Source: Sphingomonadaceae bacterium PASS1 (GTDB lineage: Bacteria; Pseudomonadota; Alphaproteobacteria; Sphingomonadales; Sphingomonadaceae). Taken from it: DNA of 64,000 bases. The stretch spans positions 3,919 through 67,918 of the forward strand of contig NKIR01000014.1 in the NCBI GenBank assembly GCA_002255985.1, in the 5' to 3' direction. The notes under the pieces were generated by a model that had not been told where the DNA came from, did no database searches, and worked only from the letters and a program-made list of their open reading frames with translations. The translations under genes were made by a program, and so were the position numbers. Positions 12,942 to 18,599 of the stretch are shown piece by piece; position 1 is the stretch's first letter; each line of letters begins with the position of its first letter.

Positions 12942-14282
12942 ATGGAGAATACGTCTTTCTACCGCACGATCTGGCGTTGGCATTTCTATGCCTCGCTCTT
13001 CGTCATGCCTCTCATACTCGTGCTTGCCACAACAGGTGCCATCTATCTGTTTAAGCCGCAATTGGACCATTGGGAAGAGCGCGCATTTACGAACCTGCCG
13101 ACTGTACAGCCGGTGTCCCCCAATGTGCAGTTGGCCGCTGTAATGGCAGCCAATCCAGGTGCGCAATTCCAAAGCTATCGCTTGCCCGAACATGCAGGCG
13201 ATGCCGCCATGATACATATTGGCCTGGCCGACGGCCAATCCATGCGCGACGTCTATGTTTCGCCGCACGGCAAAGTGTTGGGCAGCATCGATCCGGAAAG
13301 CCGGATATCCGCCACCGTGTCGCGTATACATGGTTCGCTGTTGATCGGCAAAATGGGCGATTGGATTGTTGAGCTGGCGGCGTGCTGGGCGATCGTGATG
13401 ATACTGACCGGTTTGTATATGTGGTGGCCGCGCGGGCAGCGCTTGGCCGGTGTCGTGTGGCCCCGGTTGGGGAAGGGCAATCGCGTGTTTCTGCGTGACC
13501 TACATGCGGTCACTGGTTTCTGGGTTTCAGGGCTGGCGCTTGTTTTGTTGACCACTGGATTGCCTTGGGCGAGCGTCTGGGGTGATGCTTTCCGAATTGC
13601 ACGGGCTGAATTAGGCCTCGTTCAGGGCACGCAAGATTGGAAAACGGGCAGTGCCGCACCCCATGCCGAACATGACCATGATGCAATGATGAAAATGCCG
13701 GCTGCCGAGATTCCAGTGGTCGGTTTGGCAGACATAGTGGCCAAGGCGAAGGCGGAAAGGCTGGCACATCCGGTATTGGTGAAACCGCCGGGTGCGCCTG
13801 AGCGTTTCGGCCCTCCTACGCCGATGGCTTGGAAGGTTAAATCGGAGGCACAGAACCGGCCATTGAACCGCGAGGTCATATTTGATGCCGCAACGGGCAA
13901 TGAGCTGTCTCGGAAAGGCTTTGCCGACAAACATGTCATTGATCGTGCCGTCAATTATGGAATTGCTTGGCATGAGGGCCAGCTTTTTGGCTGGATTAAT
14001 CAGCTTGTTGGAGTGCTTACAGCAGTTGCACTGAACGTCTTGGTAATATCAGGCTTTCTGATGTGGCGACGGCGCAAGCCGGATGATGCGCTCGGCGCAC
14101 CGCCCGTTGCTGCGGTGCCACCGAAAATGCGCGGGGTTGTGATGATCATCGGTGTCATGGCGTTGCTATTGCCATTGCTTGGCGCATCGCTAATCGGGCT
14201 GTGGTTGTTCGACCGGCTGCTGCTGCCCCGCTTGCCTGCACTTGCGATGTGGCTTGGGTTGCGTCCGGCTCAGCCGGCGTAA
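12942..14282 (+). CDS. PepSY-associated TM-helix domain protein
   Basis: FYRTIWRWHFYA, RIHGSLL, DLHAVTGFW, AWHEG motifs; His/Met-rich HAEHDHDAMM; GGAGG RBS before ATG 12942. Confidence 0.9.
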   Translation: MENTSFYRTIWRWHFYASLFVMPLILVLATTGAIYLFKPQLDHWEERAFTNLPTVQPVSPNVQLAAVMAANPGAQFQSYRLPEHAGDAAMIHIGLADGQSMRDVYVSPHGKVLGSIDPESRISATVSRIHGSLLIGKMGDWIVELAACWAIVMILTGLYMWWPRGQRLAGVVWPRLGKGNRVFLRDLHAVTGFWVSGLALVLLTTGLPWASVWGDAFRIARAELGLVQGTQDWKTGSAAPHAEHDHDAMMKMPAAEIPVVGLADIVAKAKAERLAHPVLVKPPGAPERFGPPTPMAWKVKSEAQNRPLNREVIFDAATGNELSRKGFADKHVIDRAVNYGIAWHEGQLFGWINQLVGVLTAVALNVLVISGFLMWRRRKPDDALGAPPVAAVPPKMRGVVMIIGVMALLLPLLGASLIGLWLFDRLLLPRLPALAMWLGLRPAQPA

Positions 14283-14674
14283 CGCGCTGCCGTCTCGCGG
14301 ATAAGCGAGATCATATTGGGAATGCCTTGCGTCCGGTTCGAGCTTAACTGATTTTTGAGGTCGAACGGCGCAAGGGCGTTCTCGATATCTGTTTTCAGAA
14401 TATCGGCGGCGTTTTTATGCTCAACCGTTTTAAGGACCAGCGCGATGATGCCTTTGGTAATCGCGGCGTTGCTGTCGGCCAGAAATGTGAGTTCGCTATC
14501 TGCGATCACGGGATAGACCCATACGCTTGCTGAACATCCACGAACCAGCGTCGCATCGGTTTTCAACGCGGCGGGCATTTCGGGTAATTCGCGGCCGAGG
14601 TCGATAAGCAACCGATAGCGGTCATCAGCCTCAAGAAATGCATATTCTTCTGTAATGTCGGCAAATGTTGTCAT
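14270..14674 (-). CDS. sufE: SufE family Fe-S assembly sulfur acceptor
   Basis: RYRLLIDLG, VRGCSASVW, ADSNAAITKG, LSSNRTQG. Confidence 0.92.
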   Translation of the reverse strand: MTTFADITEEYAFLEADDRYRLLIDLGRELPEMPAALKTDATLVRGCSASVWVYPVIADSELTFLADSNAAITKGIIALVLKTVEHKNAADILKTDIENALAPFDLKNQLSSNRTQGIPNMISLIRETAARYAG

Positions 14675-14698: not shown

Positions 14699-14941
14699 TT
14701 AGATATCAATCCCTGCCGCTATGGCTTCAAGCCTTTTTACGCGCTCTTTCAAATCCGCGACTTCAATACGCGACGTGGCCGAGGGCACGGGTGCATCATT
14801 GCCGTGCCGCATGGTTTCAAGCTCAGCATGCTTCAGCGCGATCCAGTCGCGCCAGCCGCGCAGGCTTAATGACGACACGATGCCGACACACAGCACCGCA
14901 AAGGCGCCGATGATGATGTAGAAGTTTGGATCCTGTTGCAT
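14699..14941 (-). CDS. Small membrane protein, PspB/C-like coiled coil
   Basis: N-terminal TM, C-terminal DLKERVKRLEAI; co-oriented within the psp cluster. Confidence 0.75.
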   Translation of the reverse strand: MQQDPNFYIIIGAFAVLCVGIVSSLSLRGWRDWIALKHAELETMRHGNDAPVPSATSRIEVADLKERVKRLEAIAAGIDI

Positions 14942-14967
14942 GGTCCTTCCTTTCCGTCCGCGCGCCG

Positions 14968-15240
14968 TTACCGGCTGCGCAGTTCCTCAATCTGACGGTT
15001 GATGTCACTCGCGCTATTGTTGTCCGTCGCGATGCGCTCCAAAACCTGAATGCGTTCCTTCAAAGCCCGAATTTCGTCCTGCATCTGCTGCGTATCCGCA
15101 TTGTTCAAAAGACGGTGGGTTTTTGTGCCCATGAAGTTTTCGTCTTCAACGATCCCGTGCTTTGCCTTCTGCTTCGTCTGGATAATCCTGCCGATCGTGA
15201 TGATGGCAATGATTGCGACTACCATTTGAAACGGATCCAT
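14968..15240 (-). CDS. Small membrane protein, PspB/C-like coiled coil
   Basis: TM, AKHG..EDE, ALKERIQVLERI...IEELR. Confidence 0.8.
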   Translation of the reverse strand: MDPFQMVVAIIAIITIGRIIQTKQKAKHGIVEDENFMGTKTHRLLNNADTQQMQDEIRALKERIQVLERIATDNNSASDINRQIEELRSR

Positions 15241-15256
15241 AATTTGCCTCCCATTT

Positions 15257-15556
15257 TTACCTTAGTTTTTCGATTTCTTCGGAAAGACGTCCGGCCTTGT
15301 CGGTGACGATGCGTTCGAGAACTGCGACCCGTTCTTCCAGACGACCAACCTTGCCATTCAGAGTTTCATTTTCATTGCTGAGCAGCATGATTTTGCGCTC
15401 TGCTTCGGGATAGTCGCCATCGGTCAGCGCTGTCTTTCCGCCCCATTCGTCTTCCAATGGATAGCCATGTTTAGCGCGTATCCAGTTGTTTATGAGCCAT
15501 CCGACTGTCATCATTGCAACAATCGCAATCACGAAATTTGGTCCTGCAAAGCTCAT
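15257..15556 (-). CDS. Small membrane protein, PspB/C-like coiled coil
   Basis: TM, AKHGYPLEDE, RLEERVAVLERI...LSEEIEKLR; its ATG overlaps the upstream TGA (ATGA). Confidence 0.8.
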   Translation of the reverse strand: MSFAGPNFVIAIVAMMTVGWLINNWIRAKHGYPLEDEWGGKTALTDGDYPEAERKIMLLSNENETLNGKVGRLEERVAVLERIVTDKAGRLSEEIEKLR

Positions 15557-15711
15557 TTGAATTCTTTCCATGGCAGGCGGCGTGTAACGGGCCGGATGGG
15601 GCTGTCGCGGAAATCAACGCTCCAGTTGCGGCGATCCGCCTTGCGTTTCTTCTGTGCGAAGTGGCGATATGCAAACCAGCCAATCAGTCCCAGAATGATA
15701 AGCGTGAACAT
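15553..15711 (-). CDS. 52-aa single-TM protein (not in ORF track)
   Basis: MFTLIILGLIGWFAYRHFAQKKRKADRRNWSVDFRDSPIRPVTRRLPWKEFK*; GGAAGG RBS, stop overlaps the next ATG. Confidence 0.65.
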   Translation of the reverse strand: MFTLIILGLIGWFAYRHFAQKKRKADRRNWSVDFRDSPIRPVTRRLPWKEFK

Positions 15712-15737
15712 GATTATTCCTTCCAGAATGTGGCCGT

Positions 15738-16121
15738 TTATCGAAGGCTCTCAATTTCGTCTGCCAGCTGCTTGTTGTTGCTGACATAATAGGTTTCCAT
15801 TTCGGCCAACCGGTGGTCGATTTCCCGGAAACGCGAACGAATGTCCCGCGTTGTGCGGGCAGGTGATTGACGTACGCCCTGCCAGAATTTCTGGTCCTGC
15901 CGATCATCGGTGTACAAATGCACGGGCTTTTGGTTGGCCATCCAAGCGGTGATGACGTAGGCAATTAGCGTCCACGGAAAGCCGCCCATCAGGGTGAGCA
16001 TTACCGCGCCAAGCCGGACCCAGAGAACATCAACGCCGGTATAGTCGGCAATCCCGGCGCAAACGCCTTTCCATTTCGCATTCATCTTATCGAGATAGAA
16101 TTTGGTATGTGTACCAGCCAT
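15738..16121 (-). CDS. pspC: Phage shock protein C
   Basis: FYLDKMNAKWKGVCAGIADY.G PspC domain, C-terminal LADEIESLR. Confidence 0.92.
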   Translation of the reverse strand: MAGTHTKFYLDKMNAKWKGVCAGIADYTGVDVLWVRLGAVMLTLMGGFPWTLIAYVITAWMANQKPVHLYTDDRQDQKFWQGVRQSPARTTRDIRSRFREIDHRLAEMETYYVSNNKQLADEIESLR

Positions 16122-16122
16122 T

Positions 16123-16410
16123 TTAGCGGTTCCTTTCCAGCCTGCGGACATTTTCGGGGTCGAAATCTTTTGTTTCATGATCGATGCGACGTGGCTGCCA
16201 TTCAGGATTCTCTTGGGCGACCAGACGCTCAATGGTATCGAGACGGTCTTCGAGGCGACGGGCAAGTTCGTTCATGTCGCCCAGCATCCGTTCGTCATCA
16301 TTGGTCAGCGTTGCCGCTGTTTTCCAACGGGTGACATAATGCAGGATGAGCCAAGGCAATCCAATGAACAGCATGCCAACGACGAGAACGGGGATGAGAG
16401 TATCTTCCAT
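16123..16410 (-). CDS. pspB: Phage shock protein B
   Basis: LFIGLPWLILHYVTRWK, RLEDRLDTIERL. Confidence 0.9.
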   Translation of the reverse strand: MEDTLIPVLVVGMLFIGLPWLILHYVTRWKTAATLTNDDERMLGDMNELARRLEDRLDTIERLVAQENPEWQPRRIDHETKDFDPENVRRLERNR

Positions 16411-16414
16411 CGGT

Positions 16415-17098
16415 TTAGCCTTCCTTCTGTGCGTCTTGTTTCATGGCTTTTTTCATCGCTTCCAGCTCGGCATCGACAACGTCGAAGGACTCAAGTGCTG
16501 CGATTTCGTCGCCCAGGCTGCGTGGCGCATCTGAACCGATGGACAGCGAGTCCGCATATCCCTGCGCTTCATCCACGCGGCGTTCGAGCACATCAAAGCG
16601 AGAGAAAGCCTCACGAACCTTGTCGCCATTATACATCGTGCGCAGCTTGACCTGATTTTCAGCGCTTTCAAGCCGCGTCATCAACGCGTTCTGACGGCTG
16701 CGGGCGTCGGCGAGTTTCTTCTGCAGCTTGTGAATATCCTGCTCCGAAGCTTTCAACGCATCGTTGAGAACGTCGACTTCCGCCGTCAGCTGGTCCTTCA
16801 TATCGGTCGCCTTGCGCTTTTCGACCAAGGCAGCCTTGGCAAGGTCTTCGCGATCTTTTGACAGCGCGAGATGGGCCTTGTCGGTCCAGTCAGCTTCAAG
16901 CGTGTTCAGCTTGTCGATGTGCCGGCGCAGTTCTTTCTGGTCAGCAATCGTCCGGGCGGCGGAAGCGCGGACTTCAACCAACGTTTCTTCCATCTCCAGG
17001 ATGATCATGCGGATCATCTTCGCCGGGTCCTGCGACTTGTCGAGCAAGTCCGTGACATTGGCGGCGATGATATCGCGGGTTCGTGAAAATATGCCCAT
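16415..17098 (-). CDS. pspA: Phage shock protein A
   Basis: MGIFSRTRDIIAAN...DPAKMIRMII.EMEETL long coiled coil; GGAG RBS. Confidence 0.95.
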   Translation of the reverse strand: MGIFSRTRDIIAANVTDLLDKSQDPAKMIRMIILEMEETLVEVRASAARTIADQKELRRHIDKLNTLEADWTDKAHLALSKDREDLAKAALVEKRKATDMKDQLTAEVDVLNDALKASEQDIHKLQKKLADARSRQNALMTRLESAENQVKLRTMYNGDKVREAFSRFDVLERRVDEAQGYADSLSIGSDAPRSLGDEIAALESFDVVDAELEAMKKAMKQDAQKEG

Positions 17099-17134
17099 TG
17101 GGTAACTCCGGTTAAAACTGTTCATTTGCGTAAT

Positions 17135-17193
17135 AAAAAAGGGGGCGACCGGGTACCTTTAGGAGGTAGGGGGAGCCGGGGCACTCCGGTCGC
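17135..17193 (-). terminator. Terminator/attenuator-like hairpin with CU-rich interior, between leader ORF and pspA
   Basis: Minus strand GCGACCGG...CCGGTCGC stem enclosing CTCCCCCTACCTCCT and an inner TACCT/AGGTA hairpin, followed by CCCC and T6. Confidence 0.6.
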
Positions 17194-17205: not shown

Positions 17206-17394
17206 TCAGGCAAGATAGCTGACAACGATTGGCCGATGGGTGTAATTTGGGACGTTCATGTTAATATCGTCATAATGGTTGAGAACCGAAACGGCGTAAC
17301 TGGTGAAGATCATGGACACGGACAGGGCGACTGCCAGCCATAGACGGCTTTCGCTTCCATTTACGTTGTCGCTGGTTCCGATATCTTTACGCAT
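17206..17394 (-). CDS. 62-aa single-TM leader protein of the psp operon
   Basis: MRKDIGTSDNVNGSESRLWLAVALSVSMIFTSYAVSVL...; ATG lies about 50 nt downstream of the sigma54 -12 box. Confidence 0.6.
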   Translation of the reverse strand: MRKDIGTSDNVNGSESRLWLAVALSVSMIFTSYAVSVLNHYDDINMNVPNYTHRPIVVSYLA

Positions 17395-17445: not shown

Positions 17446-17462
17446 TGCAGGGAGCGTGCCAA
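17446..17462 (-). promoter_or_regulatory. Sigma54 (-24/-12) promoter of the psp operon
   Basis: TTGGCACGCTCCCTGCA with exact GG-N10-GC spacing. Confidence 0.85.
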
Positions 17463-17516: not shown

Positions 17517-17551
17517 TGGTAATTATTGCCACACTATGGTGAAATATGCCA
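17517..17551. promoter_or_regulatory. Two putative PspF upstream activator sites
   Basis: Imperfect 15-bp palindromes TGGTAAT-T-ATTGCCA (17517-17531) and TGGTGAA-A-TATGCCA (17537-17551), 20 bp apart, 55-90 bp upstream of the -24 box. Confidence 0.65.
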
Positions 17552-17561
17552 ATCTTTGAAA

Positions 17562-18597
<1,036 letters not shown>

Positions 18598-18599
<2 letters not shown>

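What the first reader, a model, noticed from the sequence alone, without database searches (positions are those of the whole stretch)
14699..16410. Expanded psp operon: three extra PspB/PspC-like paralogs in tandem
Seen: downstream of pspBC lie three small single-TM proteins sharing a C-terminal L-x-E-R-(V/I/L)-x2-(L/I)-E-x-(I/L) coiled coil with PspB (RLEDRLDTIERL, RLEERVAVLERI, ALKERIQVLERI, DLKERVKRLEAI). Two share AKHG-x2-EDE-x2-G-x-KT, and two end like PspC (LSEEIEKLR and INRQIEELR versus LADEIESLR). The enterobacterial operon has single pspB and pspC genes. Inference: a diversified set of membrane sensors or PspA anchors, which could be an uncharacterised multi-input Psp signalling module.
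Basis: partly seen in the sequence, partly recalled or inferred. Interest (0 to 1): 0.7.

Follow-up and report, generated by a model that had tools for sequence, protein, structure and literature searches.

The report
Extra PspB-like genes in psp operon
Three small membrane-protein genes after pspABC in this Sphingorhabdus genome are real, diverged copies of the PspB/PspC-tail module, part of a gene array (0 to 7 copies) found across Sphingomonadaceae; a 2024 comparative-genomics paper noted such an array in one line, and its function is untested.

Summary
The minus strand carries pspA, pspB, pspC, a 52-aa ORF, X1 (99 aa), X2 (90 aa), X3 (80 aa) and sufE, 1-26 nt apart or overlapping, with no terminator between them. 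They lie downstream of a sigma54-like promoter and a divergent pspF.

An X1/X2 profile run against the whole genome hits only X1, X2, X3, PspC and PspB (the last at E 0.29, not significant).

Profile-profile comparison links X1/X2 to the PspB helix (93%, 21 columns) and to the PspC C-terminal tail (90%, 35 columns). A PspA coiled-coil control scores 7% or less. X3 connects only through X2 and Xc (88-90%).

None of the three reaches a curated PspB or PspC threshold.

In 81 Sphingomonadaceae loci the array holds 0-7 genes from five old subfamilies in a largely conserved order. X3 is always last.

Ravi et al. 2024 (PMC11237479) already list "PspB duplicates" in the Erythrobacter litoralis operon, so this is a new member of a known but uncharacterised kind.

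The "multi-input sensor" idea is untested. The periplasmic parts are only a few residues long.

The parts
17526..18599 (+). pspF, the sigma54 enhancer-binding activator, divergent from the operon
   Evidence: TIGR02974 at 1.9e-145, 484 bits, above its cut-off of 443
17446..17461 (-). sigma54-type promoter-like site TGGCACGCTCCCTGCA upstream of the operon
   Evidence: One mismatch to TGGCAC-N5-TTGCW, in the pspF-pspA intergenic region. The pattern as a whole is at chance level in the window, so only its position argues for it.
16415..17125 (-). pspA
   Evidence: TIGR02977 at 5e-80, 268 bits, above its cut-off of 243
16123..16410 (-). pspB (95 aa), canonical
   Evidence: PF06667 at 5e-25; TIGR02976 at 1.8e-24
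15738..16121 (-). pspC (127 aa from ATG 16121). Its C-terminal tail IDHRLAEMETYYVSNNKQLADEIESLR resembles the X1/X2 tails.
   Evidence: TIGR02978 at 1.8e-37; hhalign alignment
15553..15711 (-). Its stop overlaps the X1 start (ATGA).
   Evidence: Sequence. Conserved at 58-100% identity between pspC and X1 in 26 loci, nearly all labelled Sphingorhabdus or Sphingomonadales.
15257..15556 (-). X1 (99 aa), subfamily X1a (WIRAKHGYPLEDEWGG). It has an N-terminal TM helix, a loop and a long cytoplasmic helix ending RLEERVAVLERIVTDKAGRLSEEIEKLR.
   Evidence: 1812 homologs, all unnamed. AF2 gives helices 6-30 and 50-98. hhalign to PspB is 89.7% and to the PspC tail 90.1%.
14968..15240 (-). X2 (90 aa), subfamily X2 (MxPF[EQ]MVV...). 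It is nearly always single-copy (71 members in 68 loci).
   Evidence: 935 homologs. Present in 68 of 81 loci. hhalign to PspB is 87.8% and to the PspC tail 78.1%.
14699..14941 (-). X3 (80 aa), subfamily X3 (…RIEVADLKERVKRLEAIAAGIDI). It is the last array gene in all 68 loci of the clustering.
   Evidence: 383 homologs. Last in 68 of 68. Present in 72 of 81 loci. hhalign to X2 is 89.7%, to Xc 87.7% and to PspB only 2%.
14270..14674 (-). sufE/csdE-like gene closing the cluster, 24 nt after X3
   Evidence: PF02657 at 1e-33. Follows the array in 67 of 81 loci.

Best explanation
X1, X2 and X3 are three old, diverged paralogs of one family of single-pass inner-membrane proteins that is largely confined to Sphingomonadaceae. 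Each has a very short periplasmic N-terminus, one TM helix and a cytoplasmic C-terminal helix. The family belongs to the PspB superfamily. Its cytoplasmic helix is the same module as the PspB helix and the PspC C-terminal cytoplasmic tail.

The genes sit between pspC and sufE and are most likely transcribed with pspABC from the PspF/sigma54 promoter.

Shown: the genes are real and conserved; they are paralogous to each other; they have local profile similarity to PspB and the PspC tail; synteny and gene order are conserved.

[quoted passage not shown] By analogy, the X proteins would join the same helix-helix exchange network. Being induced together with PspA, they would act as extra membrane docking or regulatory partners for PspA and/or PspBC. 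Each subfamily would differ in its TM helix and juxtamembrane loop.
For: Anatomy and spacing.
- Gaps are 4, 1, 26, an ATGA overlap, 16, 26 and 24 nt.
- There is no terminator on the minus strand between the genes beyond chance level.
- A sigma54-like site and a divergent pspF lie upstream.

Specificity.
- The X1/X2 HMM against all 27,714 ORFs of the genome hits only X1, X2, X3 (2.5e-4), PspC (6.7e-3) and PspB (0.29, not significant on its own).

Profile-profile comparison.
- X1/X2 against PspB gives 92.7%; against the PspC tail, 90.3% over 35 columns that include the L..EIE.LR end.
- Subfamilies X1a, X1b, Xc and X2 are 98.5-99.9% alike.
- X3 against X2 and Xc gives 88-90%.
- PspA controls give 7% or less.

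Curated models.
- PF06667 finds seven extra matches inside arrays of other genera, two over its cut-off. All seven are subfamily Xc.
- Of 63 members, 29 hit NCBIfam PspC and 24 hit PspB, best E 2e-8. Thirteen hit Pfam PspB.

Conservation.
- X1 matches 123 of 151 family genomes.
- Arrays of 0-7 genes occur in 81 loci, with conserved subfamily order.

Topology. AF2 gives a TM helix at 6-30 and a helix at 50-98. Basic residues follow each TM helix (sequence).

Literature.
- Ravi et al. [quoted passage not shown]
- The PspC C-terminal cytoplasmic domain binds PspA in the on state (PMC5596341 introduction).
Against: - The similarity to PspB and PspC is local (21-35 columns of a heptad-rich helix).
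- None of the three window proteins reaches a curated PspB or PspC threshold. The best is X1 against TIGR02976, E 0.0034 and 17.6 bits against a cut-off of 51.7.
- X3 has no direct signal to PspB (2%).
- Generic leucine-zipper families such as bZIP_1 are hit about as often as Pfam PspB (15 against 13 of 63).
- The PspC tail is conserved whether or not X genes are present, so there is no co-variation to support an interaction.
- An X2-like gene stands alone, away from any psp operon, in another alphaproteobacterial family.
- There are no expression or interaction data.
Confidence: 0.7

Rival explanations
1. The X proteins are unrelated single-pass coiled-coil proteins. Their likeness to PspB and PspC is convergence of leucine-zipper heptads. 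They only share a neighbourhood with psp and have a separate function.
For: The aligned stretch is short (21-35 columns). bZIP, ZapB and DivIC-type coiled-coil families also give weak hits. The window proteins fail the curated cut-offs.
Against: Across the whole genome the X profile picks out only the psp neighbours. PspA, itself a coiled coil, scores 7% or less. The non-heptad signature ...LERI.TD....L..EI[ED].LR is shared with the PspC tail. Xc members align to positions 3-66 of the 73-position Pfam PspB model, TM helix included. Ravi et al. made the same assignment independently.
Confidence: 0.12
2. The array serves the downstream sufE/csdE-like gene, for example by tethering a sulfur-transfer protein to the membrane, and has nothing to do with the Psp response.
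For: sufE closes the cluster in 67 of 81 loci and lies 24 nt after X3 here.
Against: sufE also follows pspC directly where no X gene exists (L070, 58-nt gap), so the pspC-sufE link does not depend on the array. The X tails resemble PspB and PspC, not any Suf component.
Confidence: 0.05
3. The extra copies are functionally redundant products of tandem duplication. They change only the dose of PspB and are drifting, with no specialisation.
For: Copy number varies from 0 to 7 between genera, and some genomes lack the array altogether.
Against: Subfamilies are old and orthologous across dozens of genera. X2 has 71 members in 68 loci and X3 has exactly one per locus. Each has its own conserved juxtamembrane motif, the order is largely fixed and X3 is always last. 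That pattern indicates long-term purifying selection on distinct forms.
Confidence: 0.13

Closest known systems
PspB (PF06667 / TIGR02976), envelope stress response membrane protein
   Same: Small size, an N-terminal single TM anchor with a cytoplasmic C-terminal helix, a place in the pspFABC operon, and the helix motif L..aRRL..R(L/I)..(I/L)ERI (hhalign 77-93%).
   Different: The window proteins score far below the curated cut-offs. They carry subfamily-specific juxtamembrane loops (AKHGYPLEDEWGG in X1). X1 and X2 also carry a PspC-type L..EIE.LR end that PspB lacks. X3 shows no direct PspB signal.
[quoted passage not shown] Ravi et al. 2024 call it a divergent PspB domain fused to PspC.
   Same: A 35-column match covers the whole tail of X1 and X2, including the terminal LaxEI[ED]xLR (90-94%).
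   Different: The X proteins lack the PspC domain proper (PF04024). Their tail hangs from a PspB-like single TM helix instead.
'PspB duplicates' in the Erythrobacter litoralis psp operon (AOL22920.1 neighbourhood; Ravi et al. 2024, mSystems, PMC11237479, Table S3)
   Same: Same bacterial family in the GTDB sense (my own knowledge, not checked with a tool) and same architecture: pspF, a small ORF, pspA, pspB, pspC(+PspB), then a run of small PspB-domain genes.
   Different: That operon has five extra genes and this one has three, plus a 52-aa gene seen almost only in genomes labelled Sphingorhabdus or Sphingomonadales. The paper gives one sentence and one table row, with no subfamilies, no distribution and no function. 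I did not compare the E. litoralis sequences directly.
PspD and PspG of enterobacteria, small membrane-associated proteins of the Psp regulon (from general knowledge of the E. coli system)
   Same: Small accessory proteins co-regulated with pspA whose roles are poorly defined.
   Different: No match to any PspD or PspG family appeared in the Pfam or NCBIfam scans. Ravi et al. find PspD only in Gammaproteobacteria.

Membership tests
PspB (PF06667 / TIGR02976) | Score above the curated family threshold | tested here: not met
   X1 against TIGR02976 gives E 0.0034 and 17.6 bits (cut-off 51.7). X2 against PF06667 gives E 0.57. X3 has no hit. In other genera, two subfamily Xc members pass the Pfam cut-off (26.2 and 26.1 bits against 25.6).
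PspB (PF06667 / TIGR02976) | N-terminal single TM anchor followed by a cytoplasmic alpha-helical region | tested here: met
   The AF2 model of X1 has helices at 6-30 and 50-98. In X1, X2 and X3 the basic residues lie just after the hydrophobic stretch. Topology is predicted, not measured.
PspB (PF06667 / TIGR02976) | Profile-profile homology to PspB | tested here: inconclusive
   X1a 89.7%, X2 87.8% and the pooled X1/X2 profile 92.7% (E 4e-7), but over only 21-33 columns. X3 gives 2% directly and 88-90% to X2 and Xc. The PspA control gives 7% or less.
PspB (PF06667 / TIGR02976) | Encoded in a pspF-pspABC cluster | tested here: met
   Of the 81 loci examined, 77 carry at least one array gene downstream of pspC.
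PspB (PF06667 / TIGR02976) | Physical interaction with PspC and a role in psp induction | not testable with these tools
   Needs two-hybrid assays or genetics.
PspC (PF04024 / TIGR02978) | PspC domain (membrane hairpin region, PF04024) | tested here: not met
   X1, X2 and X3 have no PF04024 hit. NCBIfam PspC matches are mainly to its C-terminal part: model positions 87-121 for X1, and 48-120 at E 0.065 for X2.
PspC (PF04024 / TIGR02978) | C-terminal cytoplasmic leucine-zipper-like tail | tested here: met
   The pooled X1/X2 profile against the PspC tail gives 90.3% over 35 columns; subfamilies X1a and X2 give 90.1% and 78.1%. X3 does not match (0.2%).

The most novel reading that the evidence does not exclude
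The array is a graded set of membrane-tethered copies of the PspC-type PspA-binding helix, induced by PspF together with PspA. Each subfamily's distinct TM helix and juxtamembrane loop would respond to a different membrane state. Together they would decide where and how much PspA is recruited, or would titrate PspB/PspC as feedback. That would make it a modular, multi-receptor version of the Psp switch not seen in enterobacteria.
Probability: 0.2. Interest if true: 0.6.

Novelty: new member of a known kind. Interest (0 to 1): 0.38.

Why it matters
The Psp response is understood almost entirely from E. coli and Yersinia, which have one PspB and one PspC. Many Sphingomonadaceae (123 of 151 sampled genomes match X1) keep up to seven diverged copies of the PspB/PspC-tail module in a largely conserved order. 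That offers a natural experiment on what this helix does: PspA docking, PspB-PspC silencing, or something else. It also asks whether a membrane-stress switch can be built from several receptors. The proteins are all annotated 'hypothetical' and have no Pfam family, so a family definition with five subfamilies would improve annotation of several thousand database entries. The basic fact of PspB duplication in this lineage is already published, which limits the surprise.

Tried and rejected
- Primary papers on the PspC C-terminal domain (PMC4416846, PMC5116940): not held. I relied on the summary in PMC5596341.
- Direct X3 against PspB or PspC by hhalign: not significant (2% and 0.2%). X3 is tied in only through X2 and Xc.
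- Co-variation between X copy number and the PspC tail: none. The tail is conserved in 80 of 81 loci whatever the array size.
- Terminator and sigma70 promoter scans inside the array: chance level only.
- The sigma54 pattern search is at chance level over the whole window (42 matches against 50 expected). Only the position of the 17446-17461 site supports it.
- The AF2 monomer model of X1 gives two helices and a low-confidence loop, with nothing fold-specific. I did not run a fold search, because a single long helix gives meaningless matches.
- A literature search for PspB + PspC + Sphingomonas found no paper.
- A first phmmer-based count of array genes missed divergent Xc members. It was replaced by a subfamily HMM recount.
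- The 80 comparison loci were chosen by hand from PspB-positive genomes, so the counts describe those loci and are not a random sample.

Full report
**1. What is there**

The minus strand of the window between 14270 and 17125 carries a tight run of genes:
- pspA, 16415-17125 (TIGR02977, 5e-80)
- pspB, 16123-16410 (PF06667, 5e-25)
- pspC, 15738-16121 (TIGR02978, 2e-37)
- a 52-aa ORF, 15553-15711
- X1, 15257-15556
- X2, 14968-15240
- X3, 14699-14941
- a sufE/csdE-like gene, 14270-14674 (PF02657, 1e-33)

pspF lies divergently at 17526-18599 (TIGR02974, 1.9e-145).

Intergenic gaps are 4, 1, 26, an ATGA overlap, 16, 26 and 24 nt. No terminator-like site lies between the genes beyond chance level. 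A sigma54-like site, TGGCACGCTCCCTGCA, sits at 17446-17461 between pspF and the operon. That pattern is not enriched in the window as a whole, so only its position speaks for it.

Co-transcription is therefore likely but inferred.

**2.

All the quoted strings are present. One detail is off: the spacing after AKHG differs by one residue between X1 and X2.

I laid out the whole genome (3.07 Mb, 27,714 six-frame ORFs of 40 aa or more).

A profile built from 216 X1/X2-type proteins of related genomes, run against the same ORF set, returned only five hits:
- X1, 1e-38
- X2, 5e-27
- X3, 2.5e-4
- PspC, 6.7e-3
- PspB, 0.29, which is not significant on its own

This is the most direct control against the idea that it is just a coiled coil.

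**3. The genes are real**

X1 has 1812 database relatives, X2 has 935 and X3 has 383. Nearly all are labelled hypothetical, apart from a few scattered JGI names that look spurious, and none has a Pfam domain. The names attached to them point to Sphingorhabdus. X3 is 100% identical in S. rigui DSM 29050.

Nearly all listed X1 homologs are 99 aa long, which fixes the X1 start at the second Met (15556). There the stop of the 52-aa ORF overlaps the start codon.

**4. Relation to PspB and PspC**

Curated models do not claim the three proteins:
- X1 against TIGR02976 (PspB) gives E 0.0034; against TIGR02978 (PspC) it gives 0.044.
- X2 gives 0.065-0.57.
- X3 gives nothing.

I made profile-profile comparisons (hhalign) with alignments built from 81 Sphingomonadaceae loci.

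| Comparison | Probability | E-value | Columns |
|---|---|---|---|
| X1/X2 group vs PspB (L..aRRL..RL.tIERI against L..ev.rLeeRVaVLERIaTD) | 92.7% | 4e-7 | 21 |
| X1/X2 group vs PspC C-terminal tail (to the final LaxEIExLR) | 90.3% | 1.5e-6 | 35 |
| X1/X2 group vs X3 | 95.4% | 2e-8 | 47 |
| X1/X2 group vs PspA (control) | 3% | n.s. | - |

By subfamily:
- X1a, X1b, Xc and X2 are 98.5-99.9% related to each other.
- They are 77-90% related to PspB and 63-94% to the PspC tail.
- X3 relates to X2 and Xc at 88-90%, but to PspB at only 2%.

The Pfam PspB model, searched over 151 genomes of the family, found seven extra matches inside arrays, two of them over its cut-off. All seven are subfamily Xc, which this window lacks.

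I also scanned 63 array members one by one. The two NCBIfam families hit by most members were PspC (29) and PspB (24, best E 2e-8). In Pfam, PspB (13) came second to the generic bZIP_1 (15).

My reading is as follows:
- The X proteins are diverged members of the PspB superfamily.
- X1 and X2 carry a tail of the PspC C-terminal type.
- X3 is a further-diverged branch, tied in only transitively.
- The match is local and concerns a heptad-rich helix, so I put about 12% on convergence.

**5. Anatomy**

AF2 on X1 with 25 sequences gave a mean pLDDT of 77. It predicts a helix at 6-30, a low-confidence loop at 31-49 that holds the strongly conserved GYPLEDEWGG, and a helix at 50-98 with pLDDT 87-93.

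In X1, X2 and X3 the basic residues follow the hydrophobic stretch, and only 2-8 residues precede it. The predicted topology is therefore N-out, C-in, as for PspB. This leaves no room for a periplasmic sensing domain.

**6. Distribution**

- X1 matches 123 of 151 sampled genomes of the family (94 of 112 genera).
- It matches only 5 of 301 genomes sampled across the class. Two of those five are a stand-alone X2-like gene in one other family, away from any psp operon.
- PspB is present in 136 of 151 genomes. Wherever both are listed, the X1 match lies about 0.5-1.5 kb downstream of PspB on the same strand.

I fetched 80 loci and annotated them. The architecture is pspF(-) pspA pspB pspC [array] sufE.

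A subfamily-HMM recount gives these array sizes:

| Array size | 0 | 1 | 2 | 3 | 4 | 5 | 6 | 7 |
|---|---|---|---|---|---|---|---|---|
| Loci | 4 | 4 | 8 | 14 | 26 | 17 | 6 | 2 |

Clustering gives five subfamilies. Loci are those holding the subfamily, out of 81:

| Subfamily | Signature | Loci |
|---|---|---|
| X1a | WIRAKHGYP | 41 |
| X1b | WLRIKNGYP | 46 |
| Xc | AEKAAQYA | 46 |
| X2 | MNPFEMVV | 68 |
| X3 | RIEvADLKERiRKLEAIAAGV | 72 |

X2 has 71 members in 68 loci, so it is nearly always single-copy. X3 has exactly one member per locus and is last in all 68 loci of the clustering.

The commonest orders are 1a-1b-2-3, 1a-1b-c-2-3 and c-2-3. The window is 1a-2-3.

So the duplications predate the radiation of the family, and the copies have been kept as distinct forms. 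This argues against simple dosage redundancy. The window is a small version of the array.

The loci were hand-picked from PspB-positive genomes, so these are counts in those loci, not frequencies.

**7. Prior knowledge**

Ravi et al. [quoted passage not shown] They also state that PspC can be fused to a divergent C-terminal PspB domain.

That is the same architecture in the same family, and it independently supports both the PspB assignment and the PspB-like nature of the PspC tail. No function, subfamily structure or distribution is given there. A search for PspB + PspC + Sphingomonas found no paper. Popp et al. 2022 (PMC9239133) do not mention it.

**8. How it probably works (inferred)**

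In Yersinia, PspB and PspC form an inner-membrane complex that switches on under stress. [quoted passage not shown] This comes from the introduction and reference titles of PMC5596341; the primary papers were not held.

The X proteins present this same type of helix on a PspB-like anchor and would be induced together with PspA. The most economical mechanism is that they take part in the same helix-helix exchanges. They could be extra PspA docking sites in the membrane, or partners or competitors of PspB/PspC that tune the switch.

The subfamily-specific TM helices and juxtamembrane loops would be where any difference in input lies.

I found no co-variation between array size and the PspC tail. 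Nothing here tests binding.

**9. Verdict**

The 'multi-input signalling module' is an untested idea.

The thing is real, conserved and uncharacterised, but its existence is already recorded. I rate it a new member of a known kind and of moderate interest.

Noticed in passing
window 15553-15711 (-): The 52-aa single-TM, strongly basic ORF between pspC and X1 is a real gene. It is conserved at 58-100% identity, always between pspC and X1, in 26 of the 80 X3-selected loci, nearly all labelled Sphingorhabdus or Sphingomonadales. It was not detected by sequence search in the 80 loci sampled across the family. One of those (L057) has a similar 53-aa TM-plus-basic ORF in the same place.
   Followed up: partly
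window 17206-17394 (-) and 17135-17193: A 62-aa single-TM ORF lies between the sigma54-like site and pspA. It is followed by a GC stem with a T-run just before pspA. Ravi et al.'s Erythrobacter row also shows an unnamed gene 'X' between pspF and pspA, so this leader gene may be conserved in the family.
   Followed up: no
window 14270-14674 (-) and loci L021-L100: A sufE/csdE-like gene closes the psp cluster in 67 of 81 loci and follows pspC directly where the array is missing (L070, 58-nt gap). A conserved link between a Psp operon and a sulfur-acceptor protein has no explanation that I know of.
   Followed up: partly
L101:6941-7192 (-) and L102:8476-8712 (+): In another alphaproteobacterial family (f87) a single X2-like gene (MNPFEMVV…LERIVTDK…EIDNL; E 1e-21 to 1e-24 against the X1/X2 profile) stands alone, with no pspA or pspB within several kb. 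This subfamily can therefore exist outside psp operons.
   Followed up: partly
L110 (CALRLP020000002.1): A MAG labelled Maricaulis salignorans carries an X3 100% identical to the window's, with Sphingorhabdus-type neighbours. This is probably a mislabelled or mis-binned contig.
   Followed up: no
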